The translations under genes and the position numbers were made by a program. This document shows, one piece after another, positions 10,092 through 28,351 of a DNA stretch of 64,000 bases. Under the pieces are notes generated by a model. The model ran no database searches. It worked only from the letters and a program-made list of their open reading frames with translations, and was not told the DNA's origin. This DNA is from a virus. The stretch lies in IMG/VR virus record IMGVR_UViG_3300050821_002122, positions 96,001-160,000 of that record; one strand, given 5' to 3'. Numbering within the stretch: position 1 is the stretch's first letter; every line of letters starts with the position of its first letter.

Positions 10092-10411
10092 TAGACCGCC
10101 ATAGGCGCTTTGATAGCCGCATGATGTTTATAGTTCAGTAGATGGATATCGTTTGGAGCAAGTCCGCTGACTAATTCATCGAGCGACAAGATTGTAGCCC
10201 CAACAGGAACCACTATATCGAGTTCGGGCGGATCGAATGGCTTCCGGCTCAACTGTTCTTCCACCTGATCCAAATGGTTCACGTAGATGTGGGTATCCGA
10301 TAGGAACATCGTCAGCGTTGCTGCGGTGCGGCCAGTCCAGGCAGCGAATAGTCCCAGCAGCAGTGCATAGCCGGCGATGTTGAATGGTGCGCCCAAAAAT
10401 AAATCTACTGA
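10091..10411 (-). CDS. thyA: Thymidylate synthase exon 2
   Basis: SVDLFLGAPFNIAGY, DTHIYVNH, IKAPMAV C-terminus; begins right after intron end GAACATAATG. Confidence 0.92.
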   Translation of the reverse strand, partial: SVDLFLGAPFNIAGYALLLGLFAAWTGRTAATLTMFLSDTHIYVNHLDQVEEQLSRKPFDPPELDIVVPVGATILSLDELVSGLAPNDIHLLNYKHHAAIKAPMAV

Positions 10412-11541
10412 CATTATGTTCGATGTGGTTCGCGATACCACACCCGCTAGCTTTGGGCCTCAGCTAACTGCTGCATGTTACCATGCAGAGCAGACTATAT
10501 CACGCTCCTACAAGGAGCCCTTTCTTTTCGAGTGCGCTTGCACCCTACTCTACTTGCTTCCGCACATGCGGGCTTTCGATAGTCGTTAGGCATTTAATCT
10601 ACATACGAGTAATCTGGATAATTCTTGGAACGAATACGATTTAGGATGGTTGCGGTAACTACACCAAGTTTTCTTGCTGCTGCTGTCATGCTTACGTAGG
10701 TTTTTTTACCAATTCGAACCCTCCGCGTGTTGGGAGGAAGTTTACCTTTGTTAAGCTCTGACAAAAGCTGTTTTGTTTTCTTGGTATGTACTTTACCAGC
10801 GAACGAATTCACGTAATCATCGGCAGCCACTCGTGCCAATGCTGATTTTCGATAATTTTCTCTGGCTTCAGGTGTAGTGATGCGCCCGACAGCCTTTTGA
10901 TTACCTAACATGGCATCTGAAAGAATCTTTCTAACTTTTTTAGTATGCGTGTTTCCATACATACCGTTAAGCTCACCAGGTCTGCCCCACGTTTCATCTC
11001 GTTCGTCTTGAGTCATTGCAGCGATGTTCTTATGCATTGTGGTTTTGATCTGCGCTATTATTTCAGTGCGCCTACCATTACGCGTAAGATTATCACCACC
11101 GACAGCGCGCATTCCAATAGTCAATGCTTTTTTATTTTGAAGATTTTTTCGTATTAATTTATCTTCAAGTTTATAAGCATCTCCCCTATCAAGTAGTTTT
11201 ACCACGGTAAAAGTCAGATCAGACGCACCATATTTATCATACAGTTTTTGTAACTTCTGATTTATATGGTCACCACTTGCCAATGCCTTAAGGTGGCCTC
11301 TCTTCCGCGCTCGCATGTTTTTTGAACTACCGTGATAGAATTTTCCAGTTGCTGCACTCGTTATTTTGTAAACACCGCATAGTATTTTCATGACACCTCC
11401 CATTTGGTAGCATCATTAAATTGTGTAGCTAAAAGCGATGTCTAGAATGTAGATATTTAGCACGGGATTGGGTCTGTGACCGTTCCCCGTTTAGAAAGGT
11501 TTGCTAGATAGGTTGCCCTATCAAGGCGCTCAGTGTATCGA
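10412..11541 (-). mobile_element. Group I (IA2, T4 td-like) intron, 1130 nt
   Basis: CTAAACGGGGAA..CAATCCCGTGCTAAAT, AAATGCCTAACGACTA, GATATAGTCTGCTCTGCATGGTAACATGCAGC and terminal GAACATAATG match recalled td intron; P1 (GCGU/UCG with UGAGCGC) and P10 (ACUGA with exon 2 UCAGU) pair; removal restores MLMR-SVDLFLG. Confidence 0.93.
10594..11391 (-). CDS. Intron-encoded GIY-YIG homing endonuclease (I-TevI/I-BmoI family)
   Basis: GVYKI..KFYHGSS, NUMOD3-like HTKK repeats, C-terminal HTH (SMTAAARKLGV); GGAGG RBS before ATG 11391. Confidence 0.9.
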   Translation of the reverse strand: MKILCGVYKITSAATGKFYHGSSKNMRARKRGHLKALASGDHINQKLQKLYDKYGASDLTFTVVKLLDRGDAYKLEDKLIRKNLQNKKALTIGMRAVGGDNLTRNGRRTEIIAQIKTTMHKNIAAMTQDERDETWGRPGELNGMYGNTHTKKVRKILSDAMLGNQKAVGRITTPEARENYRKSALARVAADDYVNSFAGKVHTKKTKQLLSELNKGKLPPNTRRVRIGKKTYVSMTAAARKLGVVTATILNRIRSKNYPDYSYVD

Positions 11542-12165
11542 ACGCATGAGCATTGTCATATGCAAAGTGCCATCTGAGCGCGGCAGGAATTGGAAACTCA
11601 TGTGGCACGCAGGCAAAGCGATCTTATCGATTACCGCCGGATTCCACGCAGTGACGATGATGCGGCGGCTCTGGCTATTGTTCCGAATGTCATTCAAGGC
11701 GTTAGCCAATTGGTCGATACGTTGCTGGGCCACAATGCCGGTTTTGCCTTCCCAGACAAAATCAAATATGGGCATCAGGTGGTCCGGCAAGAAAGGTGCC
11801 TCAGTTAGAATTTGTGGCTGACCTGCCCAGTTACGCCACTGACTGCCGTAGACTGGTCCCAGATCGTCTACGCCTTTACGGTTCGGATTGGCCAACCACG
11901 CAGCGTTCTCGTTGGCGTTCTGATCCCAGACCTTACACCCGTTTGCCCTGAACTCGGCTGCTGATGTGGCGCCATTCAGGAAGCTGATGTATTCACCCTT
12001 GACTGAATCGAAGGCCAGCTTCTTGGTTGTGGTTGCTGGGAAGCCGTCGCGCAGATCGTAGCGCAGCATCTCACCTGGTGTAGTGATCGTGTCGATGCCA
12101 GTACGGTTGGGTTCACGCTGGCCGACGGTCAAAACGTGCTTCATCAAATCTTGGTAGTTTTTCAT
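11542..12165 (-). CDS. thyA: Thymidylate synthase exon 1
   Basis: NRTGIDT, GFPATTTKK, DLGPVYGSQWR, SRRIIVTAWNP, catalytic LPACH; exon ends at Arg codon CGT. Confidence 0.93.
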
Positions 12166-13025: not shown

Positions 13026-13413
13026 TGAAAAACTCCGTCATACTGATATGAAAGAACAGACCTTCCGCAAACGTACCGTCACCGTAGTCCAAGATAATGG
13101 CACGCACGCTACCGTCTGCTGCCACGAAACTACCGCTCAGGTAACCACGCTTGTCGCGTTGAATGAAACCCAGATGTCGCATGCCTTGATTTTGCCATAT
13201 GTAAGCACCTTCGCCCACTTTATCCGCAGTGATACCCTTCATTGTTGCCTCCAAGATCTTCGGCTTGAACGAATCGCAATCTTGGCCGTCATTGGCAAGA
13301 TTGAACGTGTACTTGAACCCGCTAGCTGTCTTGTCCTTCCAGCAGCCGAGGCGCACACCAACCGCACTACAGTTTGGATACGCATGCACGCAGGTACCGC
13401 AGTTCTTGGTCAT
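13015..13413 (-). CDS. Hypothetical Cys-rich protein
   Basis: Start MTKNCGTC at 13413 (ATGA overlap). Confidence 0.55.
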   Translation of the reverse strand: MTKNCGTCVHAYPNCSAVGVRLGCWKDKTASGFKYTFNLANDGQDCDSFKPKILEATMKGITADKVGEGAYIWQNQGMRHLGFIQRDKRGYLSGSFVAADGSVRAIILDYGDGTFAEGLFFHISMTEFFNET

Positions 13414-13733
13414 AGGTCCGCCATATAGATAGCTGACGGACGCATGCTGATCCTGTAGTCGCCGTCGTAGACATTGAAGTCTTCGACTGGGCCATCGTTG
13501 ACTGTATCGGTCTTCAACACATAGTGAACCTGACAACCAGCAATCGTTGTGTTGCCGACCTGCATGTACCAATTGGCGGACTTACCGTTTGGCCTGATAC
13601 CCAACGTATCCTCGGCTGTGCAGACACCATTTAGGGTGCCGAAGATAGCTCGGTACTGTTTGCCGTCAGCACCATAGAACCAGCTGTCTACGGTCACCAG
13701 AACTTTGTCACCAACCTGAGCGTTAATCATCAT
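13410..13733 (-). CDS. Hypothetical protein
   Basis: 107 aa, ATGA overlaps at both ends. Confidence 0.6.
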   Translation of the reverse strand: MMINAQVGDKVLVTVDSWFYGADGKQYRAIFGTLNGVCTAEDTLGIRPNGKSANWYMQVGNTTIAGCQVHYVLKTDTVNDGPVEDFNVYDGDYRISMRPSAIYMADL

Positions 13734-14260
13734 TGCACCATGAATGGTATGTGGAAGTGCTTCAGAGCCAACTCAACCTGCAGAGTGGACCAATCGAAAA
13801 GCGGGTACACGTATTGCTGACCATGTTCACCCAGTTCGAGGTACATGGGCATTTGTTCGATTGGCCACTGTACACCCCTGACGTCAAGCGTCTTACCTGG
13901 ATGGCGATCCATACGCAAACCACTGATGCACGTAATAAGACCCATTTCTTTAGCGTCAGCAGCCGCAGGCGCCGAGTAGTAATACTGCGTCAGCGTCTTG
14001 GTAAGCTCAGGCGCAGTAACACCAGGTTCGATGTTGAATACAACCGGGCATCCGATGCTGGCCTCACCAAGCAGTTCCATTATAAGAGTCGATGAGCGGC
14101 CACCGCTGTGTGCAACGTAGAGGCTATCACGGTCAAACGGGATTGCCTTCAATCGCTTGATGGTTTCTTCGATCATACCTGGTACAGTGCCGGTCATGAA
14201 TGCCAGGTATTCAGGAGTATGGCCTTGAGCAGCCAAGTAGCGGTCATCGATCAGTTGCAT
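13730..14260 (-). CDS. Degenerate PP-loop (PAPS-reductase-like) protein
   Basis: LYVAHSGGRSS, ISGLR, YPLFDWS..QV; GGAG RBS before ATG 14260; paralog of 19781..20371. Confidence 0.6.
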   Translation of the reverse strand: MQLIDDRYLAAQGHTPEYLAFMTGTVPGMIEETIKRLKAIPFDRDSLYVAHSGGRSSTLIMELLGEASIGCPVVFNIEPGVTAPELTKTLTQYYYSAPAAADAKEMGLITCISGLRMDRHPGKTLDVRGVQWPIEQMPMYLELGEHGQQYVYPLFDWSTLQVELALKHFHIPFMVQ

Positions 14261-14441
14261 TGTCGTCTCCATCGTATGGTGGTGGGGTTTGGGTCTGCGT
14301 TTCTCCACACATGGGACAACCGTCCTGCGTGTAGTGAATGTTGTCCACAGTTTGGATATGTGCAGGGTACCAATTGCCGCACAAACACTGTGCTACAATC
14401 TGAGGTTTATCTTTGCATGCCTTCCAGTCCAAGACCATCAC
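14244..14441 (-). CDS. Small zinc-ribbon protein
   Basis: CLC..CPMC. Confidence 0.5.
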   Translation of the reverse strand: MMVLDWKACKDKPQIVAQCLCGNWYPAHIQTVDNIHYTQDGCPMCGETQTQTPPPYDGDDNATDR

Positions 14442-15124
14442 GTTGCTCCTTTGGTTTGCTCCACCATACGGTAGAATTCTTCTTTTAGGGATTTGTCGGT
14501 GCGCATTTCACCACGCATCACGGAGGTGACCATACGACTACCTTGATCCTTCACACCGCGGTGGCCGCAGCACAAATGATTGCCCACGACCATAACGGCC
14601 AGACCTAATGGTTCGGTCAACGCCTCCAGCTCATTAGCTATCTGATCTGTAAGTTCCTCCTGAATTTGCGGGCGGCTTGCTATATGAGCCACGATGCGAT
14701 GGAACTTGGAGAGGCCGATCAGTTTGTCTTGAGGTAAGACACCGATGTAGGCCTGTCCGGTAATAGGTACCAGATGGTGGGCACATGAGCTACGCATATT
14801 AATGGGGCCAACGACGTATAGCTCATCGACCTTATTCACGTTAGGGAATTCAGTGACATCGGGCATCGGAACATACCGACCGTTGAAGGTCTCCAATACC
14901 AGCATCTTGGCAAAGCGACGAGCGGTATCTGCCGAGTTATGATCGTTCTTCGTGTCGATGACCAGCGACTTTAGCACTGCCTGCATTTTGGTAGCAACCT
15001 CATCGACCAACAGTGGTATGTCTTTCTCATCGATTGCCGACGAGATGTTGTCGTTGCTGAAGAACCGCATTTTACCTGCTGCGAGTCGGTCACGAATAAC
15101 ATCACTGATTGGTTTGATTTTCAT
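14438..15124 (-). CDS. folE: GTP cyclohydrolase I
   Basis: TARRFAKM, SSCAHHLVPI, GLSKFHRIV, RPQIQEELT, HLCCGHRGV; start MKIKP at 15124. Confidence 0.95.
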   Translation of the reverse strand: MKIKPISDVIRDRLAAGKMRFFSNDNISSAIDEKDIPLLVDEVATKMQAVLKSLVIDTKNDHNSADTARRFAKMLVLETFNGRYVPMPDVTEFPNVNKVDELYVVGPINMRSSCAHHLVPITGQAYIGVLPQDKLIGLSKFHRIVAHIASRPQIQEELTDQIANELEALTEPLGLAVMVVGNHLCCGHRGVKDQGSRMVTSVMRGEMRTDKSLKEEFYRMVEQTKGAT

Positions 15125-15909
15125 GCGATCCCCAGAAAAATATGTGCTTGAATACTGACGTTGATAGAGTGCTTCAGTGCGTAGGCTGCCGCGTATTGGA
15201 AGTTTGCTGCGGTCTGTACTTTGTCCACCAAGCCGTCTTCCCAGATGGAAGAAACTTCGCCCATGTACGCCTTCTGATAGATCACCATAGGTGACACGTA
15301 TATAGGCTTGTGGCTTTCTAGCGCCCAATCAGGAACCTCATGATGCGGGTTGTCTGGATCAGCAGATATAACAAACTTAAGGCAGTTAGCCCACCAGAGG
15401 ACGTCGTTGTTGATTTTCGGATACTTGCCAGTATTGACATTTGCTTTAGGCGAAACAACCGATACGAAACGTTTGGTCATCTTGCGACGCACTGCCTCCA
15501 AGTAGAACTTGGGCTGCGTACCGTTGGTTTCCAGTTGGATCGTCTCGAACATCGGCTCTGCCAAAACGATCAGATCGAGTAACGCCAGTTGCAACGTTGG
15601 TTCTCCGCCTGTGATGACCAGTATCTGTTTCTTGTTGTAGCCCTGGGTCATGATGAAGTCTAGCAACTCCTGCGGAGTGTAGGCATTAGCAGTATCGAAC
15701 TGGAAACTGGTATCGCAGAAGTGGCAGAAATCAGTCTTCGATCCGTAGTTGCAGCCAGCTAGGCGCACGAACATAGCTGGACGGCCCACCAAAGGACCCT
15801 CACCTTGATGCGTTGCGAAGACAGACGAAACCAACAGGCGACCATCCAGCGCCTTGTAATCTCGCGCAGATACATTGCGATCTGCGTTTTGGGGAATAAT
15901 TGGGATCAT
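15121..15909 (-). CDS. queE: 7-carboxy-7-deazaguanine synthase (radical SAM)
   Basis: FATHQGEG..GRPAMFVRLAGC, CX8CX2C, ITGGEP, ETNGT, SPK, SIQAH. Confidence 0.92.
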   Translation of the reverse strand: MIPIIPQNADRNVSARDYKALDGRLLVSSVFATHQGEGPLVGRPAMFVRLAGCNYGSKTDFCHFCDTSFQFDTANAYTPQELLDFIMTQGYNKKQILVITGGEPTLQLALLDLIVLAEPMFETIQLETNGTQPKFYLEAVRRKMTKRFVSVVSPKANVNTGKYPKINNDVLWWANCLKFVISADPDNPHHEVPDWALESHKPIYVSPMVIYQKAYMGEVSSIWEDGLVDKVQTAANFQYAAAYALKHSINVSIQAHIFLGIA

Positions 15910-15918
15910 GGTAATTCC

Positions 15919-16275
15919 TCAGTAGATCATTTTGTGATGGTCCTTGGTCTCGGCCAACTGGATACCATCGGATTTTGATTTGACGACTGCAGGTTTAAGT
16001 TCGCGTATGAAGCCCTTTATGAGCATAACCTCTGCATCGCGCTTCGGACGTACTGTTGACCGCATGTATAGACCTCGCGCATAAACAGCATCGCAGATCG
16101 GGATACCACAGACCTTCAGAGTGTCAACGTGATCGTAGATATATACATCGTTCGGTTTGCCAGCTTTGACCCAAGCATACACTGACTTGTAGGTCTCCTT
16201 GTCGATCCTGCCAAAGATCAGGCCACCTACTCGGCGTTTGACCTTACAGGAATTTGCGACTATGGAATTTTTCAT
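15919..16275 (-). CDS. Hypothetical protein inside deazaguanine cluster
   Basis: 118 aa between tgt-like gene and queE. Confidence 0.55.
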   Translation of the reverse strand: MKNSIVANSCKVKRRVGGLIFGRIDKETYKSVYAWVKAGKPNDVYIYDHVDTLKVCGIPICDAVYARGLYMRSTVRPKRDAEVMLIKGFIRELKPAVVKSKSDGIQLAETKDHHKMIY

Positions 16276-17530
16276 AGCTCCTCAGTATCTTGGTATAAAG
16301 TTCTTGATTGGGGACCTTACCCGTTGACCGAAACAACGACTTGGTCGTATTGGATTGTCGCAGGGTAGTGAATTTATCTTTCTCGATAATAGACTCAGCA
16401 TACTTAACAAACTTGTGGAATTCGTTGTACTTGAGCGTCAGGTTCAGTGTCTTGTAAATCTCTTCCAGCTTCACTGTGCCTTTAACGTACTGGTAGGCCA
16501 TGTCACTCATCAGCTTAGCCCACTGTGCGCGCACCCACAGGTTGTGGGCCTCCAGTACGTAGGTGTTGTTGACGATGCGGATGTCATCCAGCGCAAAGCA
16601 AACCGGACAGTTACAGGGCATCGCTTGGTGGTAAGTCTGTTTCTTGTGTAGGCTTATCGTCTGGAAGTCGTAAGTGTCGTACATGCCAACCAAAGCACCA
16701 AGGCGATGGCTAACCGAGTCGGCACCAATCGATTTGACGTAGCCTGACGAATCGAGCAATGCGTATATAAACAGCCAGAACTTGGAGGTGATACCAAGCA
16801 CATGGAAGTAGCGAGCGGATTTGTGGTAGCGTTGAACCACATACATCAAGCTCTCTAGAGCAGTGGTCACGTGATCGACGCCAGGAGCAGGTTTGATACC
16901 CAGACCTGCGATGGCTATAACCCTAGCCTTACGGTCTAGAACATCCAAGCGCGATTTGCGCCGAGCTAACGTTGATCCGTGACTGATGATTGCGAGATCG
17001 ATACCTGGCTTCAGATGCTTCAACATGAAGTCATCGTTGGCTTTAATCATCTTCGACACTGGGTCCCAGAACATATGCTCAGCAGCCGACGGCACCGGCA
17101 AGTCAAGGGGCATTGCGATGTTCGCCTTCACGTTGTAAAGCTTGACGAGATTGGTTGGGTCAACAAAGTCGACCGTACCTTTCAGCATTTGAAAGCCGCC
17201 GCTATCAACAATCGATTCGATGCCTTGCTGCTCGAATGGTTCTTTGATGAATCCACCGTGGATAGGATTGGCCAGAACCTTCGTGATGCCGCAGTTCTTT
17301 AGGAAGGACGAACTCAATGTTGGTACGATGACGTCGGCTTGGTCCTTCGATGTGACGCCACCGCGTGTAGAAGTATTGACGACAACGATGGTCTTCTCCT
17401 TCGCTCGCCATCTCTTGTACAGCTTACCGTGTTCGGATGTCTCCGCTTCATTTGGTTTGTTGGTAATCTGTATTTGAGTTGTGCGATCAGAGTAGCCCTC
17501 ACCACCGGCAGGAACGTAGCAGAGAGTCAT
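16244..17530 (-). CDS. tRNA/DNA guanine transglycosylase family (DpdA-like)
   Basis: DSGGFQ, PLD, SHG, HVLG, ADS, zinc site CNCPVC..H; phage context with folE/queD/queE. Confidence 0.85.
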   Translation of the reverse strand: MTLCYVPAGGEGYSDRTTQIQITNKPNEAETSEHGKLYKRWRAKEKTIVVVNTSTRGGVTSKDQADVIVPTLSSSFLKNCGITKVLANPIHGGFIKEPFEQQGIESIVDSGGFQMLKGTVDFVDPTNLVKLYNVKANIAMPLDLPVPSAAEHMFWDPVSKMIKANDDFMLKHLKPGIDLAIISHGSTLARRKSRLDVLDRKARVIAIAGLGIKPAPGVDHVTTALESLMYVVQRYHKSARYFHVLGITSKFWLFIYALLDSSGYVKSIGADSVSHRLGALVGMYDTYDFQTISLHKKQTYHQAMPCNCPVCFALDDIRIVNNTYVLEAHNLWVRAQWAKLMSDMAYQYVKGTVKLEEIYKTLNLTLKYNEFHKFVKYAESIIEKDKFTTLRQSNTTKSLFRSTGKVPNQELYTKILRSYEKFHSRKFL

Positions 17531-17555
17531 ATAGTCTTTCGTGATTAGATACTAC

Positions 17556-17563
17556 TATTTACT
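17556..17563 (-). promoter_or_regulatory. Candidate phage promoter AGTAAATA
   Basis: Intergenic, ~25 nt upstream of the ATG at 17530, just after a terminator. Confidence 0.6.
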
Positions 17564-17568
17564 GCGAC

Positions 17569-17600
17569 AAAAGGCACTGCTCTTGTTAGGAGTCAGTGCC
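17569..17600 (-). terminator. Rho-independent terminator
   Basis: GGCACTG..CAGTGCC stem followed by TTTT. Confidence 0.65.
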
Positions 17601-17608
17601 CAGTTGTC

Positions 17609-18700
17609 TCACAGGTCGAGTAGTTCGTTGATGATGTTGTCCATGCCGGAGGTATCGAGCGGCAACTTCGGACGCGGTGTATCGAATCGGCTTATCCACT
17701 TGCACGCCTGCTCGAAATCATCACCGTTCAAGCGCATGTTGAACTGGTACTGCCGAGTTACAAACTCATCGTGACTTAGGCCTGTTGATAGCAATGGTAC
17801 ACAGCCGTAGTGGACTGCTTCGGCTATGCAGTAGCCATAGTTCTCTTCAATTGAGTGCGAGACCATCATGTAAGCTTCAGCCAATTCGCGGTGATACTGC
17901 TCTTTGGTGAGACCGGGTTTGATGGTAATGATGCCGGCAGCAACCATGTTATTGAGCAGAAGGTTGTCCTCAACGCGACCGCGGAAGCCCGGTCGCCCGG
18001 TGCAGACCACAAATTCCCAATCAGGGAATTTATGCTTCAACTCCCTGAAAAGTTTGAGTGTCAAACTTGGTCGCTTCTCGTGGTCAAAGCGATTGGTCAG
18101 CACGACCTTTTTCTGCTTTTTTACGGCACCGAAATCATGGTATTCATCAAGGAACAGAGGATTCTTCGTGACCACGATTTTAGCCGGCCAGGCAGAACCG
18201 GTTAAACCACGCCGAGTAATAACGACTTGTTGATGATATTTGGAGCCCACGAAGACCTTATCCAACGCACTTAACCAGCCAACCTCGGTGTACTGCTGGT
18301 ACTCCTCTGCGATAGAGAACGCATCCTCTTTGGTATAGGATGCTGCATGCAGGAAGCCCGTCAGCTTCACATCTTTTAGGCCATTCATTTGAGCCATCAG
18401 CTTTACCGATTCCAAGCCCCAGAATTCGATATCACCGAAGAAGAAAATGTCGTCATTGCGGACTTCGCCACAATGGAACATGCGCGCGACTTCCTGCAAC
18501 TGCGTCATCTTGTAGTGGACGGTCGAGTTGATATCCAAGAAGGCGCCGACCTTAATTTCGTTGTCCAGTAGCGGCTTACCCTCTATGGTAAGAACCTCAA
18601 AGCCGAATCGCTCGAAGGCGAGTGGAAAGTTGCGGTACCATTGCTCCGTATAGCGCTCGGTGATAGGCTCGATAGGGACCATTATGATTCGACGTTTCAT
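17609..18700 (-). CDS. GT-B glycosyltransferase (GT4-like)
   Basis: TNRFDHEKRP, ENYGYCIAEA..GC (EX7E-like), HAASY. Confidence 0.85.
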   Translation of the reverse strand: MKRRIIMVPIEPITERYTEQWYRNFPLAFERFGFEVLTIEGKPLLDNEIKVGAFLDINSTVHYKMTQLQEVARMFHCGEVRNDDIFFFGDIEFWGLESVKLMAQMNGLKDVKLTGFLHAASYTKEDAFSIAEEYQQYTEVGWLSALDKVFVGSKYHQQVVITRRGLTGSAWPAKIVVTKNPLFLDEYHDFGAVKKQKKVVLTNRFDHEKRPSLTLKLFRELKHKFPDWEFVVCTGRPGFRGRVEDNLLLNNMVAAGIITIKPGLTKEQYHRELAEAYMMVSHSIEENYGYCIAEAVHYGCVPLLSTGLSHDEFVTRQYQFNMRLNGDDFEQACKWISRFDTPRPKLPLDTSGMDNIINELLDL

Positions 18701-19119
18701 AGCTCGGTATCTCCTTCAAATTCGTCTGGGGTGGTAGCGATAAAGTTTCTAGCCGCAACACACAGTACCTCACGCTCTGGTGAATGGAACTTGACCTGAT
18801 CGTCCTCCCACAAGTTTGCCACTGAATTGAAGTACTCCTGCGGCAACGTCAGCATCAGGCTCACGTTGCTAGGTCTTCGCATGTTTTGCTTACCGCAGAC
18901 CTTCGTCACTTCGATGGTAACCTGCTTGTTCTCAAACATGTTACCGACAGCCTCATAGTTCAGCGTGTTACCGTGATCGCTAACGTAGAGGTGGTTGGTG
19001 CAATTTTCTTTCAGTAGGTCTTGGATGATATGTTTGTTGGTGATCAATTCCACAGCGCTAACGAACAGCGTCTTTACGCCACGCAAGCGCCCTTCGCATT
19101 CTACCCCGATCTTAGCCAT
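18697..19119 (-). CDS. Hypothetical protein, translationally coupled to glycosyltransferase
   Basis: IGVECEG..GVKTLFV..HLYV; ATGA overlap. Confidence 0.6.
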   Translation of the reverse strand: MAKIGVECEGRLRGVKTLFVSAVELITNKHIIQDLLKENCTNHLYVSDHGNTLNYEAVGNMFENKQVTIEVTKVCGKQNMRRPSNVSLMLTLPQEYFNSVANLWEDDQVKFHSPEREVLCVAARNFIATTPDEFEGDTEL

Positions 19120-19788
19120 TTAAGCCTCCACAGTAATATTGTCGTAGGTGACTGTCACCTTACCGGTGCAGATAGCCAGCAAGTCATTCATAAATTCCCT
19201 GCGGTTGTGACCAAATTGACCACCTCGGTTATTTGTCAAATGCCAACCGAGTACCTTATCGACATCGTTCACTGGCACAGTGACGGCTAGCGTACGGCCG
19301 CTCGGCTGCGTCCATGCCAGCGTGCGGTACTCGTCGTAGTCAGTTTCCTGTATGTCCTCAAACAGCCAGTATTTGTCGTTGTTCTCCCATAGCGATGCCT
19401 GACTAGGATAAATATCGTTAAGTAGTTTTTGTTTGGCTCTTGGTACCTGTACCAACTTACCGCATGCCATATCAACGCTATAGAACTTGGTGGCCTTATT
19501 ACGATATTTTGCGTTGACCATCTTGTGGTCCGCATGCCAATCTTTGCGACTCGGGACATAGACCTCGTGGTACCCATCAGGAATTTCGTAAGTATTGAAG
19601 TCAGCGAACTCCAAATCGAAACCAAAGGATGCACAGCACACCAGGGCTTCTGCCTTGCGTTCATCGGTCAACTCAAAAAAGTAGACGACCGACACAGTTA
19701 CTTCAGGGTCCAGTAAGACCGACCAGCAGCCGATGACCTCATCGTCTGCGTGCGGTGCTAAGATCAATACCGGCTGGCGCCTAATCAT
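19120..19788 (-). CDS. PIG-L/LmbE-family N-acetyl deacetylase
   Basis: ILAPHADDEVIGC, R.AEA, WHADH; start MIRRQ at 19788. Confidence 0.8.
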   Translation of the reverse strand: MIRRQPVLILAPHADDEVIGCWSVLLDPEVTVSVVYFFELTDERKAEALVCCASFGFDLEFADFNTYEIPDGYHEVYVPSRKDWHADHKMVNAKYRNKATKFYSVDMACGKLVQVPRAKQKLLNDIYPSQASLWENNDKYWLFEDIQETDYDEYRTLAWTQPSGRTLAVTVPVNDVDKVLGWHLTNNRGGQFGHNRREFMNDLLAICTGKVTVTYDNITVEA

Positions 19789-20371
19789 GATAGTACTCCG
19801 GCGATACTGGGATGTCGTAGTGGAAAATCGCAGCCCATACTTCTTCGTCGGACCAGTCGTAGATCGGGTAGCAGAAATTCTGACCAAATAAACCACTAGT
19901 TAGATACAGCGGGGTCTCCGTGCGTGAGACTTCTCTACCTTCGACGATCAGGCCAATGTCGCGGCCATCACGACGATCAGCCTCAGCGACGCGAGTACCA
20001 TCGATTTGCACTTTGTAACCAAGTCGAGGTAAGTTCTCACCATCCGGTACGTACAGAATTGGACGATTCAGGCTGTACAGAAATTCTTTAGTCAGCGGAT
20101 GGACCTCATTGCGAATACCGCTAGGCTTCGGAGTGTGGATAGTCATCACGCCGGGACCAAGTGCGCGGTCAGTGAGCCAGCGCACGAGGACCGAGTCTTT
20201 GCCGCCGCTGTGGCCAACGTAGACGACGCTTCCAATAATACGAAATGGCATACCGAAGATACGCTGACCGGCCTCTTCCACTAGCGTATGGATACTCGCT
20301 GTGGCGTCACACAGTTTATTACGATCCAGTGCCTGACGTTCGATGATGATATTTTGAATTCTGGAATCCAT
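19781..20371 (-). CDS. PP-loop (PAPS-reductase-like) nucleotidyltransferase
   Basis: VYVGHSGGKDS, IDGTRVAE..R, YPIYDWSDEEVW. Confidence 0.8.
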   Translation of the reverse strand: MDSRIQNIIIERQALDRNKLCDATASIHTLVEEAGQRIFGMPFRIIGSVVYVGHSGGKDSVLVRWLTDRALGPGVMTIHTPKPSGIRNEVHPLTKEFLYSLNRPILYVPDGENLPRLGYKVQIDGTRVAEADRRDGRDIGLIVEGREVSRTETPLYLTSGLFGQNFCYPIYDWSDEEVWAAIFHYDIPVSPEYYHD

Positions 20372-20372
20372 G

Positions 20373-21734
20373 TTATTTTCCTTTGAATAGTTTGCGGGTA
20401 GTGGTCTTCGGCTGCTGATTCTTAACAGGCTTTACACCGGTGTGATAGTAAAGCGTGCCCTTTACTACCGTGGTCTCTACACCTAGCTTACGAAGACCGT
20501 GATAGTAGTCACTCCAGAATGTATTTACTGGCTGACGTCCGGTGGCAGACCATCCCATTACTGCGTAGACTTCTTGCTTCGTCAGCGCCTTCTTGTCGAG
20601 CGCCTTCATGACGAGCGCGATCTTTGGGCTCTTTGTAGATGCACGCTCAAGGCGCTGACCGAATACATCGACTAACCGGGCACTTAGTTTCTTTTTGTAC
20701 TGCTCGGTATTGGTGATTTTCGCCAGACCTTGTGCTGTGTATTTAAGGACCTTATCGGCGTAACCTTTTTCGGTTACCAAGCGATGCAAACGCTCGGGTA
20801 CTTCTTTTGCCTTCAGCGTAGTCTTATCACCTATGATTTTCGTATAGGCTTCGTTGCAAGGCAGATTGAATATCGCCAAACCATAACGTGCGCTTTCTAG
20901 AATGGAGATGCCGTAACTCTCTGCCGTTGACGTGCCAATGGTGACATTTGCGTCCATTAGCGATTGCTCATAAGCTGCGTCGTCATAGGCAAAGGGACGC
21001 TGCTCGGTGACCGCAGCCAGGCTCTTTGGTACTATTTTCTTGATCTCGTCGGATGTCAAGGACGACAGCAAAATGATCTTAATTGGCACCTTTGGGTACC
21101 GTGTGTGGAAGTCTTCTATTATGCCAAAGAACGCCTTTGGATTCTTTGCAGCATTCAGGCGGTGATTCCACAAGAATGTCAAGGTTTTGAAATTCTTCTT
21201 GATGTCCTTGGGCGGCTCAAACTTGTACAGGTCTGGAGGAGGCAAGACCAACATTTTAGATTCCACTACCTTGAGGGCATTCTTAGACCACAGCTTCGGC
21301 AATTCGATATTCATCAGAGTATCGCGCAGTACAGGCGACACCATGATAACATCAGAAACAAGCATTGAGGCAAATATATCCAGCATATGGGCTTTATTCT
21401 TTTGCCACCGCGTGTCCAGCAAATCCATCCCGTAGTGCCCGTGCGCTATACGCATCACCTTCAAGAAGTCTTGGAAATAAGCACCATGGTTACCAGAGAA
21501 GTTCAGTAGCTCGTTGAAGCTCAATGCATCTTCGGCGTAGAAGAAATCCGAATCGCAGTTCCAGAAGTCTATGGTTTCGTATGCCTGTCGCGTGTTCATA
21601 ACCGAACGCGGATTAAACAACGTCAGCCGTGTGTTGTCGTATAGTTTGTTGGCGAGAACGCGGTAGTGAGGAACGAATTTGTTCTTGTTGGCATTCGTTT
21701 CCTCAATGCCGAATATATTCAGAGTAGGCTTCAT
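20373..21734 (-). CDS. GT-B glycosyltransferase with basic C-terminal domain
   Basis: FLWNHRLNAAKNPKAFF, ESYGISILESARYG. Confidence 0.85.
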   Translation of the reverse strand: MKPTLNIFGIEETNANKNKFVPHYRVLANKLYDNTRLTLFNPRSVMNTRQAYETIDFWNCDSDFFYAEDALSFNELLNFSGNHGAYFQDFLKVMRIAHGHYGMDLLDTRWQKNKAHMLDIFASMLVSDVIMVSPVLRDTLMNIELPKLWSKNALKVVESKMLVLPPPDLYKFEPPKDIKKNFKTLTFLWNHRLNAAKNPKAFFGIIEDFHTRYPKVPIKIILLSSLTSDEIKKIVPKSLAAVTEQRPFAYDDAAYEQSLMDANVTIGTSTAESYGISILESARYGLAIFNLPCNEAYTKIIGDKTTLKAKEVPERLHRLVTEKGYADKVLKYTAQGLAKITNTEQYKKKLSARLVDVFGQRLERASTKSPKIALVMKALDKKALTKQEVYAVMGWSATGRQPVNTFWSDYYHGLRKLGVETTVVKGTLYYHTGVKPVKNQQPKTTTRKLFKGK

Positions 21735-21787
21735 TATGCGTCCAAGGCAAAAGCCCTGACCTGATGGTGCAGGCCAAGGCTCGTGGT

Positions 21788-22249
21788 TTAAATAGTTTGA
21801 ACTGGTATTGCCTTGACATACTCCAGCGTCGCACCGTTGATGTTGTCCTCCAGTACCGAGACTTTGATATCACGCCCCTTGTATTTGTCGGCGATGCGGC
21901 CAATCAACGACTCAGCAAGCATCTCGCACGATTGACTGTTCAACTTCATGACGCCTTGATCGTAGAGGCGCTGGCACCAACGGCTGAATTGGATAAATTC
22001 GATATCGCGGTCATTTTGGAAAACTTCGACAGTGACCTTGAACGTGAAGTAGTGGAAGTGAGGTGACGCCAAGAAAGAAACGTCATCCCATTCTCCGGTT
22101 GCCAGATTTGGATCGGTAGCCGCAGCAGGATAGCAGTGTACGCCTTCCTTGACGAACTCAACATGAATCCATCGTTTCATAAGCGGCTGGCTTACAAAGT
22201 CCACACCTTTGCTATCGGGTATGGAGGTCTTTTGATTTGGTTTGAACAT
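21788..22249 (-). CDS. Second T-fold (QueD-paralog, DpdL-like?) protein
   Basis: PHFH (HxH), RDIEF, SCEMLAE, VSVLEDNINGA; adjacent to queD. Confidence 0.6.
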   Translation of the reverse strand: MFKPNQKTSIPDSKGVDFVSQPLMKRWIHVEFVKEGVHCYPAAATDPNLATGEWDDVSFLASPHFHYFTFKVTVEVFQNDRDIEFIQFSRWCQRLYDQGVMKLNSQSCEMLAESLIGRIADKYKGRDIKVSVLEDNINGATLEYVKAIPVQTI

Positions 22250-22250
22250 T

Positions 22251-22697
22251 CTATTCTCCGAGGTAGATTGCGCTGTTGCTGCCGTGTTCCGAAACCTGTG
22301 CCGATACGAGACGCACTCGCGGCGCATGACCACTGCCTTGTAACCACTGGTTGGCTATGTCGTAGGCCATACGAGCGAATGCCTCGCAGCCGACTGCCTC
22401 GACTACCAGCAGGTCCAAGATGCCCTCTTGGCACATAGCCTTAAATTGGTCAAGCTTAGGATCGTCCTTTGCGACCAGCGTCTTGTGATCGAAGTGACTA
22501 CGATAGATAGCCTCCACTTCCTTCAGTGCGCCGAAATCGACAACCCAATTGCGTTCGTCCAATTCGGTGGCCTCGAAGACCAACTCAATGGCGATAGCGT
22601 AACCATGTACACGGGCACAATGCGATGCTGCCCGCCATTGCCTGAATGCGCAACTGAGGCCTCGCTCATGGCCCCATTTCTTGGTAGATCGAAACAT
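22251..22697 (-). CDS. queD: 6-carboxy-5,6,7,8-tetrahydropterin synthase
   Basis: SHCARVHGY, WVVDFG, FDHKTL, GCEAFA, VSEH. Confidence 0.9.
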   Translation of the reverse strand: MFRSTKKWGHERGLSCAFRQWRAASHCARVHGYAIAIELVFEATELDERNWVVDFGALKEVEAIYRSHFDHKTLVAKDDPKLDQFKAMCQEGILDLLVVEAVGCEAFARMAYDIANQWLQGSGHAPRVRLVSAQVSEHGSNSAIYLGE

Positions 22698-22724: not shown

Positions 22725-22914
22725 ACCCGAGCGTATGTGACTCTGGGTCACTACGTGCTGCGCGCATATGGGTGTCGCCGCAGTTCGCGCAAGGTATCCG
22801 TGCAACGATCTGAAGAATCGTGATGTCGAATTTTGCATGACTGCGATATATGTGACCGCATTTGCATTCGACGGTGTATTCTGGGTATTGGTCTAGGTTG
22901 GTCCAGTCAATCAT
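22723..22914 (-). CDS. Small zinc-ribbon protein
   Basis: CKC..CANC; start MIDWT at 22914. Confidence 0.5.
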   Translation of the reverse strand: MIDWTNLDQYPEYTVECKCGHIYRSHAKFDITILQIVARIPCANCGDTHMRAARSDPESHTLG

Positions 22915-23437
22915 GATTTCTCCCTGCAGGTTTAGGTAAATATCCCTTCTTATGAAAGATAGTTTTTGCAGCAAAATACGCTGCGCTTGCAGCTTTGGCA
23001 GTGTCAAACCTACCAAGATAGTAATATTTACCGTTGAGACCGATTCGTGACATGAATACCCCATTCAGTTTCGTTACACCAAGCAGACCTGTCTTATTAC
23101 GCCTATGGGCAATTACCTGATTCTGTTGATTCACAGAATTAGTAGTTGCCCTAAGGTTGGACCAACTATTATTTTGCTTATTTCTGTCTTTATGGTCTAC
23201 CATATTTTCAGGGTAGCAACCTCTGACGAATAAATAGGCTAACCTATGAGCTTTATACGCCAATCCATGAATACGAATAACGACATAGCCTTTAGCCAAA
23301 GTACCCGCCGTAGTACCTTGTTTAGCTCTGGTAGCTATCGTTATTCGCCACGTAAAAGAGCCCGTAAGTTTGTCATAACGTAAAAGCGACATAAGCTCTC
23401 GGCGAGACAACTCATTTTTCTTTTTGAGTTTTGGCAT
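22907..23437 (-). CDS. Free-standing HNH-AP2 homing endonuclease
   Basis: YD..TG.FTW, YKAHRLAY, VDHKDRNKQNN..SNLR, G..GV..YLGRFDTAKAASAAY; visibly AT-rich. Confidence 0.9.
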   Translation of the reverse strand: MPKLKKKNELSRRELMSLLRYDKLTGSFTWRITIATRAKQGTTAGTLAKGYVVIRIHGLAYKAHRLAYLFVRGCYPENMVDHKDRNKQNNSWSNLRATTNSVNQQNQVIAHRRNKTGLLGVTKLNGVFMSRIGLNGKYYYLGRFDTAKAASAAYFAAKTIFHKKGYLPKPAGRNHD

Positions 23438-27993: not shown

Positions 27994-28351
27994 TGGTTGA
28001 CCTGTTATAGTTTAGCCGCATACCACTAAGTTCAGAGCCGTAAGTCAACGCCCAGGCGACTGGATTTGTCAGATCGCAGTCGCCCTCATAAAGCATGGTG
28101 AGCATTTCCCTAACAACGTCTTGAACTTGGATTTCGCTGGCAGCCCAGAATATGAAATTTAGGACTTCATGTTCAAAAATAACGAACCGCGGGCTAGAGG
28201 CACCCGCAGCAAGTGCAACGGTAATACGAGTATTAGCCCACGGGCTAACCAACTCGTCAACGAACAGCATGTAAATCTGTTGGTTCAAATGGTCCGATAT
28301 ATAAATCCTGTCTACCTCTACCTGTTCTATGCTGTAGCGGCTTCCTTGCAT
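27980..28351 (-). CDS. Hypothetical protein
   Basis: 123 aa, tiles. Confidence 0.55.
   Translation of the reverse strand: MQGSRYSIEQVEVDRIYISDHLNQQIYMLFVDELVSPWANTRITVALAAGASSPRFVIFEHEVLNFIFWAASEIQVQDVVREMLTMLYEGDCDLTNPVAWALTYGSELSGMRLNYNRSTNELH

What the first reader, a model, noticed from the sequence alone, without database searches (positions are those of the whole stretch)
13730..22697. Candidate new DNA hypermodification system: 7-deazaguanine pathway interleaved with glycosyltransferases, a deacetylase and PP-loop enzymes
Seen: in transcription order queD, second T-fold protein, GT-B (453 aa), PP-loop, PIG-L deacetylase, hypothetical, GT-B (363 aa), then terminator+promoter, TGT/DpdA, hypothetical, queE, folE, Zn-ribbon, second PP-loop; many genes overlap at start/stop. 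Established: FolE-QueD-QueE make CDG from GTP, and phage DpdA-family transglycosylases put 7-deazaguanines into DNA to evade restriction. The phage bases I know (dPreQ0, dPreQ1, dG+, dADG, dCDG, dDG, methyl- and formyl-preQ1) carry no sugar. Inference: the sugar-handling genes sit physically between queD and dpdA, so the end product may be a glycosylated or aminosugar-conjugated 7-deazaguanine in DNA.
Basis: partly seen in the sequence, partly recalled or inferred. Interest (0 to 1): 0.9.

Follow-up and report, generated by a model that had tools for sequence, protein, structure and literature searches.

The report
Sugar module inside phage deazaguanine operon
An uncultured large phage carries the genes that swap guanine in its DNA for a 7-deazaguanine, and built into that operon are sugar-adding and sugar-trimming enzymes that travel with these genes in many phages, which predicts a sugar-bearing purine in DNA that I found in no paper.

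Summary
Window 13730-22697 (minus strand) is one tightly packed run: QueD, a DpdL-type T-fold protein, a GT4-like glycosyltransferase with a C-terminal extension (GT453), a PAPS-reductase-like PP-loop protein, an LmbE/PIG-L-type deacetylase, a small unknown protein (hyp140), a second GT4-like glycosyltransferase (GT363), a hairpin, a DpdA-type transglycosylase, QueE, FolE, a Cys-rich peptide and a degenerate PP-loop paralogue. No QueC was found in the 190-kb record.

The sugar genes are tied to the deazaguanine genes. Sixty-one viral contigs were fished with a GT363 motif alone. Fifty-eight of them carry DpdL, FolE, QueE, QueD or DpdA within 8 kb. Conversely, 44 of 45 DpdL loci with enough flank carry this glycosyltransferase. 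In 14 loci the deacetylase and DpdL are one fused protein.

Cultured phages have the pair too (PA5oct, ACP17, Phosso, BCSR5, BUDD, X1). Only BCSR5, BUDD and X1 also have the deacetylase, PP-loop and hyp140 genes.

The product is untested. The only DpdL phage analysed chemically (phiST, which has no glycosyltransferase) has plain dDG. I read this as a new variant of the DpdL/DpdA system that probably yields an amino-sugar-bearing 7-deazaguanine. This scan has reported the same module on other DNA at least ten times.

The parts
22251..22697 (-). QueD (6-carboxytetrahydropterin synthase)
   Evidence: PF01242 1.6e-18 and phrog_2389 3e-39. TIGR03367 QueD 7e-11.
21788..22180 (-). DpdL-type T-fold protein (QueD paralogue; proposed CDG decarboxylase)
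   Evidence: phrog_17812 1.4e-22. By tblastn it is 56% identical to the PA5oct homologue and 44% to ACP17 DpdL. Alignment A5 shows it 30% identical to phiST DpdL, with the motif LASPHFHYF against LxxxHRHxF, and with DRDIEF, SCEM and ED.(E/I)NG blocks.
20373..21734 (-). GT453: GT4-like retaining GT-B glycosyltransferase with a C-terminal helix/beta-hairpin extension and a basic tail
   Evidence: AF2 model pLDDT 83.4. Foldseek gives MshA, SenB, PimA and BshA. VIA gives Z 22.7 to BshA over residues 1-360. R192, K197 and E272 are invariant. Only 12 homologues were found. The C-terminal part was not searched on its own.
19781..20371 (-). PP-loop1: PAPS-reductase / CysD / FMN-adenylyltransferase-like ATP pyrophosphatase
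   Evidence: SGGKDS, DGTR and P-I-x-D-W motifs. Its profile hits CysD 1zun 1.7e-9, FAD synthase 6.6e-8 and PAPS reductase 1e-5, but QueC only at 0.66.
19120..19788 (-). LmbE/PIG-L-type metal-dependent de-N-acetylase
   Evidence: PF02585 1.3e-3, below the cut-off. The BCSR5 orthologue scores 4.7e-5. APHxDDE and HxxH are invariant in 16 sequences. It is fused to DpdL in 14 related loci.
18697..19119 (-). hyp140: conserved small protein of unknown function
   Evidence: It lies between PIG-L and GT363 in BCSR5, BUDD, L022-L024 and 12 IMG/VR loci. There are 341 representatives at E<=1e-3, all stand-alone. No Pfam, PDB or Atlas lead.
17609..18700 (-). GT363: core GT4-like glycosyltransferase of the cassette
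   Evidence: PF00534 3.6e-7. AF2 pLDDT 93.2. VIA Z 28.1 to sucrose-phosphate synthase, 26.9 to BshA and 19.8 to T4 AGT. R204, K209, E286 and E294 are invariant in 39 sequences.
17563..17611 (-). Stem-loop followed by a U-run, between GT363 and DpdA
   Evidence: RNA fold -24.5 kcal/mol, z -3.3, with 0 of 200 shuffles as stable. Not called by the simple terminator scan because its loop is too long.
16244..17530 (-). DpdA-type guanine transglycosylase (TGT superfamily)
   Evidence: DSGGFQ at 109-114 and CNCPVC at 306-311. 53% identical to the BCSR5 protein and 27% to the Motura TGT. Profile A9 hits ArcTGT 1.6e-11, QTRT1 8e-5 and DNA-guanine transglycosylase 7ui4 3.5e-3.
15919..16275 (-). hyp118: small protein that follows DpdA
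   Evidence: Conserved after DpdA in BCSR5 and in L032-L034 and L038. No family hit.
15121..15909 (-). QueE (7-carboxy-7-deazaguanine synthase, radical SAM)
   Evidence: PF04055 3.7e-9. The five best NCBIfam hits are QueE models, 1e-17 to 3e-15. 45% identical to the annotated QueE of BCSR5.
14438..15124 (-). FolE (GTP cyclohydrolase I)
   Evidence: PF01227 2.2e-45. NF006824 3.8e-46.
14244..14441 (-). 65-aa Cys-rich peptide (possible zinc ribbon)
   Evidence: The translation shows CLCG...CPMCG. No family hit.
13730..14308 (-). PP-loop2: degenerate paralogue of PP-loop1
   Evidence: It aligns with the PP-loop1 family at 27% identity, with SGGRSS in place of SGGKDS and the DGTR block lost. No separate orthologue in BCSR5.

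Best explanation
This is a phage DNA-modification operon of the DpdL/DpdA (QueC-less) 7-deazaguanine type, extended by a dedicated glycosylation module.

Steps that follow from the known families:
- FolE, QueD and QueE make 7-carboxy-7-deazaguanine (CDG) from GTP.
- The DpdA-type transglycosylase exchanges guanine in the phage's DNA for the deazapurine.

Steps inferred:
- The DpdL-type T-fold protein acts on CDG. Its proposed activity is decarboxylation to 7-deazaguanine.
- GT363, an intact retaining GT4-like enzyme, transfers a hexosamine-type sugar from a host nucleotide sugar onto the deazaguanine. The sugar is most likely GlcNAc, because this subclade of the enzyme travels with an LmbE-type deacetylase.
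- The PIG-L/LmbE enzyme removes the acetyl group to expose an amine.
- PP-loop1, hyp140 and, in this lineage, the second glycosyltransferase GT453 elaborate the adduct further. GT453 carries a possibly nucleic-acid-binding tail.

Not determined: the atom that bears the sugar, and whether glycosylation comes before or after insertion into DNA.

The expected benefit is protection of deazaguanine DNA from restriction and from defences that recognise plain deazaguanines.
For: Gene identities.

No QueC in the 190-kb record.

The same gene order occurs in Burkholderia phage BCSR5 and Xanthomonas phage BUDD. The related phage Motura has QueC plus an AsnB-like gene in the same slot.

Linkage starting from GT363. 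Sixty-one IMG/VR loci were found by a GT363 N-terminal motif alone. Within 8 kb:
- DpdL in 52.
- FolE in 48.
- QueE in 38.
- DpdA in 25.
- At least one of these or QueD in 58 of 61.

Linkage starting from DpdL. At least 576 loci exist. Of the best 80, 62 have GT363. Of the 45 with 3 kb or more on both sides, 44 have it.

A PIG-L::DpdL fusion protein occurs in 14 loci.

PIG-L is present in 21 of 22 loci whose GT363 is at least 41% identical to the window's. It is present in 0 of 39 loci at 36% or below.

The residues expected to bind the nucleotide-sugar donor (the conserved Arg/Lys pair and the E-x7-E glutamates) are invariant in both transferases.

The thymidylate-synthase homologue next to the cluster is an ordinary TS (3v8h, 1.4e-62). 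So there is no sign of a hydroxymethyl-pyrimidine route that the transferases could serve instead.

PA5oct, which has the DpdA-GT-DpdL unit, has a modified G of unknown chemistry (PMC12191111). ACP17 DpdL plus DpdA alone gave no dDG in E. coli, and the authors suggested that other enzymes may be needed (PMC10516641).
Against: - No chemical data exist for any phage with this module.
- The only DpdL phage analysed (phiST) has unglycosylated dDG. If DpdL removes the carboxyl, C7 carries no obvious handle for an O- or N-glycoside.
- GT4 enzymes have many acceptor types, and fold similarity says nothing about the acceptor.
- PIG-L scores below Pfam's cut-off.
- The PP-loop protein resembles enzymes that adenylate sulfate or phosphate (CysD, FMN adenylyltransferase) rather than carboxylates. 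Its role is open.
- Counts over metagenomic loci include related contigs, so they are not independent events.
Confidence: 0.55

Rival explanations
1. The sugar is only transient. GT363 and PIG-L act on a free small-molecule intermediate, for example a sugar-tagged CDG, deazaguanine or pterin precursor that DpdL needs. The base that ends up in DNA would then be plain dDG or dCDG.
For: DpdL is fused to the deacetylase, which fits consecutive steps on one small molecule. Tetrahydrobiopterin glucosyltransferase, which acts on a pterin, is among the structural neighbours of both transferases, with Z 23.2 and 18.3. ACP17 DpdL plus DpdA gave no dDG without further genes (PMC10516641). phiST DNA carries plain dDG (PMC10516641).
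Against: phiST makes dDG without any such transferase. The pterin enzyme is no closer than dozens of other GT4 enzymes. Variable tailoring genes around the module (methyltransferase, radical SAM, acetyltransferase, second GT) look like diversification of a final product rather than of a transient carrier. GT453 has an extra basic C-terminal domain.
Confidence: 0.17
2. The glycosylation genes serve another target, such as another DNA base, a virion or host protein, or envelope sugars. They would sit in the operon only because of shared early or middle expression.
For: GT4 enzymes commonly act on lipids, proteins and polysaccharides. In Xanthomonas PhiXhv phages a distant GT hit is annotated together with a BshB-like deacetylase, about 90 kb or more from the DpdA-like hit in the same genomes.
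Against: Near-obligate two-way linkage with DpdL, FolE, QueE and DpdA across many lineages, and the PIG-L::DpdL fusion. No hydroxymethylase-type TS homologue, since the TS is ordinary. A narrow motif scan found no GT363 relatives in 185,579 prokaryote species genomes.
Confidence: 0.1
3. The transglycosylase modifies tRNA rather than DNA, and the sugars decorate a queuosine-like tRNA base, as in eukaryotic mannosyl- and galactosyl-queuosine.
For: An intact CxCxxC zinc site, and best profile similarity to archaeosine tRNA-guanine transglycosylase. Glycosylated 7-deazaguanine is known only in tRNA (10.64898/2026.06.28.735034).
Against: The record encodes a single tRNA (Met-CAT) and none with a GUN anticodon. 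Phage DpdA proteins with CDG-pathway genes are linked to DNA modification in every tested case (PMC10516641, PMC6884629). PA5oct virion DNA resists G-containing restriction sites (PMC12191111). No QTMAN_N match.
Confidence: 0.04

Closest known systems
DpdL/DpdA3 system of Cellulophaga phage phiST, giving 2'-deoxy-7-deazaguanosine (Cui, Hutinet et al., NAR 2023, PMC10516641)
   Same: FolE, QueD and QueE, no QueC, a DpdL-type QueD paralogue and a DpdA-family transglycosylase in one cluster.
   Different: phiST has no glycosyltransferase, deacetylase, PP-loop or hyp140 gene in the region examined. Its DpdA3 is 259 aa and does not match this DpdA's profile. The window's DpdL reads HFH instead of HRH.
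QueC-containing phage deazaguanine systems (dPreQ0, dADG, dG+; Hutinet et al. 2019, PMC6884629), for example the cluster of Achromobacter phage Motura
   Same: Same genomic slot and same order of QueD, DpdA, QueE and FolE. The Motura DpdA is 27% identical.
   Different: QueC and the AsnB-like amidotransferase are replaced by DpdL, two glycosyltransferases, a PP-loop protein, PIG-L and hyp140.
Mycothiol and bacillithiol logic: MshA/BshA (a GT4 GlcNAc transferase), then MshB/BshB (an LmbE deacetylase), then an ATP-dependent ligase
   Same: A GT4-like transferase with BshA or MshA among its nearest structures, plus an LmbE-type deacetylase, plus an ATP-using enzyme with a nucleotide-binding alpha/beta fold, all encoded side by side.
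   Different: The acceptor is unknown and the context is DNA modification. The ATP enzyme is PAPS-reductase-like, not a Cys ligase. The family relations are remote (9-14% identity).
Glucosylation of 5-hydroxymethylcytosine in T-even phage DNA (alpha- and beta-glucosyltransferases)
   Same: Phage-encoded GT-B enzymes that would put a sugar on an already non-canonical DNA base as a second layer of protection. T4 AGT is a structural neighbour, with Z 19.8 and 16.2.
   Different: Purine rather than pyrimidine. No hydroxymethyl handle. Closer to GT4 enzymes than to AGT or BGT.
Glycosyl-queuosine in vertebrate tRNA (QTMAN, QTGAL) and the natural product huimycin (HuiG puts GlcNAc on N2 of a 7-deazaguanine base, PMC7439116)
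   Same: The only described sugar-bearing 7-deazaguanines. Huimycin shows that a glycosyltransferase can use the deazaguanine ring system itself as acceptor.
   Different: One is tRNA and the other a free metabolite, not DNA. No detectable QTMAN_N domain here. HuiG was not compared.

Membership tests
DpdA (DNA-guanine transglycosylase, TGT superfamily) | Homology to the TGT fold | tested here: met
   Profile A9 hits ArcTGT 1iq8 at 1.6e-11, QTRT1 at 8e-5 and bacterial DpdA 7ui4 at 3.5e-3. Pfam TGT itself does not reach significance.
DpdA (DNA-guanine transglycosylase, TGT superfamily) | Catalytic aspartates and zinc site | tested here: met
   D109 (in DSGGFQ), D143 and D271 are invariant in 18 sequences. 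CNCPVC is present. The mapping onto catalytic roles is inferred from the motif.
DpdA (DNA-guanine transglycosylase, TGT superfamily) | Acts on DNA | not testable with these tools
   Context only: the CDG-pathway genes are adjacent, and the record has one tRNA, Met-CAT.
DpdL (proposed CDG decarboxylase) | QueD-like T-fold with LxxxHRHxF in place of CxxxHGH | tested here: met
   The window has L-ASP-HFH-Y-F, with R replaced by F as in PA5oct. It is 30% identical to phiST DpdL and 43% to ACP17 DpdL in alignment A5.
DpdL (proposed CDG decarboxylase) | Occurs with FolE, QueD, QueE and DpdA, and without QueC | tested here: met
DpdL (proposed CDG decarboxylase) | Decarboxylase activity | not testable with these tools
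   Unproven even for the founding members (PMC10516641).
GT4-like retaining GT-B glycosyltransferases | GT-B fold with the conserved Arg/Lys pair and the E-x7-E glutamates (taken as the donor-binding residues) | tested here: met
   GT363: pLDDT 93, Z 26.9 to BshA, with R204, K209, E286 and E294 invariant. GT453: pLDDT 83, Z 22.7 to BshA, with R192, K197 and E272 invariant.
LmbE/PIG-L deacetylases | Pfam PF02585 above the gathering score | tested here: inconclusive
   19.7 bits against a cut-off of 28.2. The BCSR5 orthologue scores 24.3 bits. The profile found no PDB hit.
LmbE/PIG-L deacetylases | Metal and catalytic motifs AHPDD(E) and HxxH | tested here: met
   APHxDDE and H85..H88 are invariant in 16 sequences. 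That these are the LmbE zinc ligands is from my knowledge of MshB.
QueC (preQ0 synthase) | Match to the QueC family by either PP-loop protein | tested here: not met
   No PF06508 match in the whole record. QueC 3bl5 scores only E 0.66, against 1.7e-9 for CysD.
QTMAN/GTDC1 (queuosine mannosyltransferase) | QTMAN_N (PF12038) N-terminal domain | tested here: not met
   No match at E<=1 in the record, and none for GT453 at E<=10.

The most novel reading that the evidence does not exclude
Phages with this cassette replace guanine with a 7-deazaguanine that carries a sugar. In this extended form the sugar would be a de-N-acetylated, further elaborated amino sugar. That would be the first glycosylated purine in any DNA. 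It might be joined through an unusual bond, either C-glycosidic at the electron-rich C7 after decarboxylation or N2-linked as in huimycin.
Probability: 0.45. Interest if true: 0.9.

Novelty: new variant of a known kind. Interest (0 to 1): 0.78.

Why it matters
Every 7-deazaguanine so far described in DNA carries only a small C7 group, and the sugar-bearing DNA bases I know of (from memory) are pyrimidines. A sugar-bearing deazaguanine would be a new class of DNA base.

It would help explain three things:
- Why DpdL and DpdA alone failed to reconstitute dDG in E. coli.
- The unknown modified G of the therapy-relevant jumbo phage PA5oct.
- How phages answer defences that recognise deazaguanines (Dag glycosylases, END nucleases).

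It would also supply new enzymes for DNA labelling. The hypothesis can be tested now, because phages with the minimal module (PA5oct, ACP17, Phosso) and with the extended module (BCSR5, BUDD, X1) are in culture.

Tried and rejected
- Megablast of the region against phage records: no match.
- The search for related loci with the single DpdA protein: no match.
- Pfam, NCBIfam and PHROGs gave nothing for GT453, hyp140 or hyp118. For DpdA they gave only a weak TgtA hit.
- QTMAN/GTDC1 kinship of GT453, suggested by a sibling note: no PF12038 match.
- The PP-loop proteins as QueC substitutes by homology: rejected, because they are of the CysD / FAD-synthase / PAPS-reductase type.
- A hydroxymethyl-pyrimidine route as the real target of the transferases: the neighbouring TS homologue is an ordinary thymidylate synthase.
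- hyp140: the profile found nothing in the PDB, the Atlas gave only unnamed clusters with a poor model, and the 1.84-billion-protein search found only stand-alone small proteins.
- The C-terminal part of GT453: the Atlas feature search scored 0.78, which is noise. It was not folded on its own.
- PIG-L profile against the PDB: no hit.
- Pfam TGT on five related viral records: too insensitive for these DpdAs.
- GT363 relatives in prokaryote genomes by a narrow motif: none.
- DpdL in 'genome contigs': 13 MAG contigs with the phage-like order. I could not tell islands from mis-binned phage DNA.
- The MMBR 2024 review was not available.

Full report
**What is there.** The window is bases 96001-160000 of a 189,689-bp IMG/VR virus record, estimated 80% complete. 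The finding sits in the replication and nucleotide-metabolism region. Upstream lie a DNA polymerase, a primase and a peptidase-like gene. Downstream lie a thymidylate synthase and a sigma factor.

On the minus strand, in transcription order, the genes are:
- QueD
- a second T-fold protein
- GT453
- PP-loop1
- PIG-L
- hyp140
- GT363
- a hairpin
- DpdA
- hyp118
- QueE
- FolE
- a 65-aa Cys-rich peptide
- PP-loop2

Gene ends abut or overlap by 4-8 nt at most junctions, as read from the coordinates.

The 78-nt gap before dpdA folds into a stable stem-loop of -24.5 kcal/mol, z -3.3. A promoter there is not shown.

**Identities of the canonical genes.**
- FolE, QueD and QueE are clear.
- The 428-aa protein has the DSGGFQ and CxCxxC motifs.
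- As a family profile it matches archaeosine tRNA-guanine transglycosylase (1.6e-11), QTRT1 and the solved bacterial DNA-guanine transglycosylase. It is a divergent DpdA-type enzyme.
- The record has no QueC.
- Its only tRNA is Met-CAT.

**The second T-fold protein is a DpdL homologue.**
- It aligns with phiST DpdL (30%), ACP17 DpdL (43%) and the PA5oct homologue (56%).
- It shares the blocks L-x3-H-(R/F)-H-x-F, DR(D/E)IEF, SCE and ED.ENG.
- DpdL was proposed, not proven, to decarboxylate CDG (PMC10516641).

**The sugar-handling genes.**
- GT363 folds with pLDDT 93 into a GT-B enzyme. VIA gives Z 28.1 to sucrose-phosphate synthase, 26.9 to BshA and 19.8 to T4 alpha-glucosyltransferase.
- The residues expected to bind the nucleotide-sugar donor (R204, K209, E286, E294) are invariant in 39 homologues.
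- GT453 has no Pfam hit, but folds with pLDDT 83 into the same fold (Z 22.7 to BshA). It adds a C-terminal three-helix plus beta-hairpin unit and a disordered basic tail. That this tail binds nucleic acid is my inference.
- The PIG-L call rests on a sub-threshold Pfam score. It also rests on the invariant APHxDDE and HxxH motifs of LmbE enzymes.
- PP-loop1 has SGGKDS and is closest to CysD, eukaryotic FAD synthase and PAPS reductase, not to QueC.
- PP-loop2 is a degenerate paralogue.
- hyp140 is a widespread stand-alone family without any lead.

**Is the association more than chance?**

1. Cultured relatives.
   - Burkholderia phage BCSR5 (DpdA 53% identical) has the same order. An AAA_28 kinase-like gene stands where GT453 is.
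   - Xanthomonas phage BUDD has FolE, PP-loop, PIG-L, hyp140, GT363, DpdA, DpdL, QueE.
   - In Achromobacter phage Motura, the same slot between QueD and DpdA holds QueC and an AsnB-like gene. So the sugar module occupies the place of the known tailoring enzymes.

2. Search from the transferase. A search of IMG/VR with nothing but a GT363 N-terminal motif gave 61 loci. Within 8 kb:
   - 52 have DpdL.
   - 48 have FolE.
   - 38 have QueE.
   - 25 have a DpdA that my lineage-specific profile can see.
   - 58 have at least one of these or QueD.

3. Search from DpdL.
   - A DpdL motif search found at least 576 loci.
   - Of the best 80, 62 carry the GT363 family.
   - Of the 45 with 3 kb or more on both sides, 44 do.

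4. Fusions. In 11 of the 61 loci and in three contigs reached through GT453 homologues, PIG-L and DpdL are one polypeptide.

5. Subclade pattern.
   - PIG-L accompanies 21 of 22 GT363 genes that are at least 41% identical to the window's.
   - It accompanies none of the 39 more distant ones.
   - This fits a subclade that transfers an N-acetylated sugar.

These counts include related contigs. They describe conservation, not independent events.

**Two grades of the system.**
- The common, minimal form is DpdA, DpdL and GT with the CDG genes. It occurs in PA5oct-like phages, ACP17, Phosso and BUCT-ZZ01, and in all 80 DpdL loci examined.
- The window has the rarer extended form, which adds PP-loop, PIG-L and hyp140. 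Its own small lineage also adds GT453, which has only 12 homologues.
- Other loci add a SAM methyltransferase, extra radical-SAM proteins or an acetyltransferase. This looks like diversification of a final adduct.

**What the literature says.**
- phiST has FolE, QueD, QueE, DpdL and DpdA3 but no such transferase. All its G is replaced by dDG.
- ACP17 DpdL plus DpdA gave no dDG in E. coli. The authors suggested that other enzymes may be needed (PMC10516641).
- PA5oct DNA resists enzymes with G in their sites. The chemistry is unknown (PMC12191111).
- I found no paper on a glycosylated deazaguanine in DNA.
- Sugar-bearing 7-deazaguanines are known in vertebrate tRNA (10.64898/2026.06.28.735034). 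One is also known as the metabolite huimycin, in which HuiG puts GlcNAc on N2 of the base (PMC7439116).

**Mechanism.**
- Established by family: GTP is converted to CDG by FolE, QueD and QueE, and base exchange is done by a TGT-type enzyme.
- Inferred: DpdL processes CDG. GT363 adds a (probably N-acetyl)hexosamine. PIG-L deacetylates it. PP-loop1, hyp140 and GT453 extend it.
- The pairing of a GT4 enzyme with an LmbE enzyme repeats the GlcNAc-transfer-then-deacetylation logic of mycothiol, bacillithiol, GPI and aminoglycoside pathways (my knowledge of those pathways).
- PP-loop1 might adenylate a carboxylate for amide formation with the freed amine. Given its CysD / PAPS-reductase kinship, it might instead handle sulfate or a phosphate. 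Neither was tested.
- The linkage atom is unknown. The options are C7 (a C-glycoside on the electron-rich pyrrole carbon), N2 as in huimycin, or the CDG carboxyl if DpdL is not a decarboxylase here.
- Whether the sugar is added before or after insertion into DNA is also open.

**Rivals.**
- A transient sugar on a small-molecule intermediate, leaving plain dDG or dCDG in DNA.
- An unrelated target for the transferases.
- A tRNA target.

The linkage data and the fusion argue against the second. The tRNA content and the published phage DpdA data argue against the third. The first cannot be excluded without chemistry.

**Verdict.** This is a new variant of the DpdL/DpdA deazaguanine DNA-modification system, with a conserved glycosylation module and an untested product. 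The same module was reported by this scan on at least ten other genomes. My linkage tests were run independently here and agree.

Noticed in passing
window 10094-12165 (-): The thymidylate synthase gene is split. The N-terminal part is at 11530-12165 and the C-terminal part at about 10094-10417. A GIY-YIG/homing-endonuclease ORF (10594-11403, phrog_314 7.6e-26) lies between them, which suggests an intron-type insertion. The TS itself is ordinary (3v8h, 1.4e-62).
   Followed up: partly
window 28327-31998 (-): A 1223-aa DNA polymerase ORF carries an in-frame HNH endonuclease domain at residues about 690-861 (phrog_99 1.6e-55). This looks like an intein-like or in-frame homing insertion.
   Followed up: no
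window 22907-23437 (-): A free-standing HNH_3 endonuclease gene (5.3e-13) lies just upstream of queD. It is a third homing-type nuclease in this 20-kb replication region.
   Followed up: no
L001 5138-6064 (Burkholderia phage BCSR5): Where the window has GT453, BCSR5 has a 308-aa AAA_28 kinase-like protein (5e-11). So the slot after DpdL holds interchangeable tailoring genes.
   Followed up: partly
L006 2742-3281 and 70-1440; L005 8263-9012; L024 12900-13382: Related cassettes carry a SAM methyltransferase, extra radical-SAM proteins and a weak acetyltransferase hit between the PIG-L::DpdL fusion and GT363. These are further candidate tailoring steps.
   Followed up: partly
L030 6212-7363 (Vibrio phage Bakedbeans gp176): The DpdL domain forms the C-terminal third of a 383-aa protein. 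The N-terminal 260 residues match none of my profiles, so this is another DpdL fusion partner.
   Followed up: no
L172-L184 (genome contigs): Thirteen MAG contigs assigned to very different bacterial and archaeal phyla carry DpdL, and most show the phage-like order DpdA, DpdL, GT, FolE. DpdL is 51-56% identical to the window's in 11 of them. They are probably phage DNA binned into MAGs, but islands were not excluded.
   Followed up: partly
window 13410-13733 (-): A 107-aa ORF overlaps the end of PP-loop2 by 4 nt (phrog_22562, unknown function, 4e-20). It may still belong to the operon.
   Followed up: no
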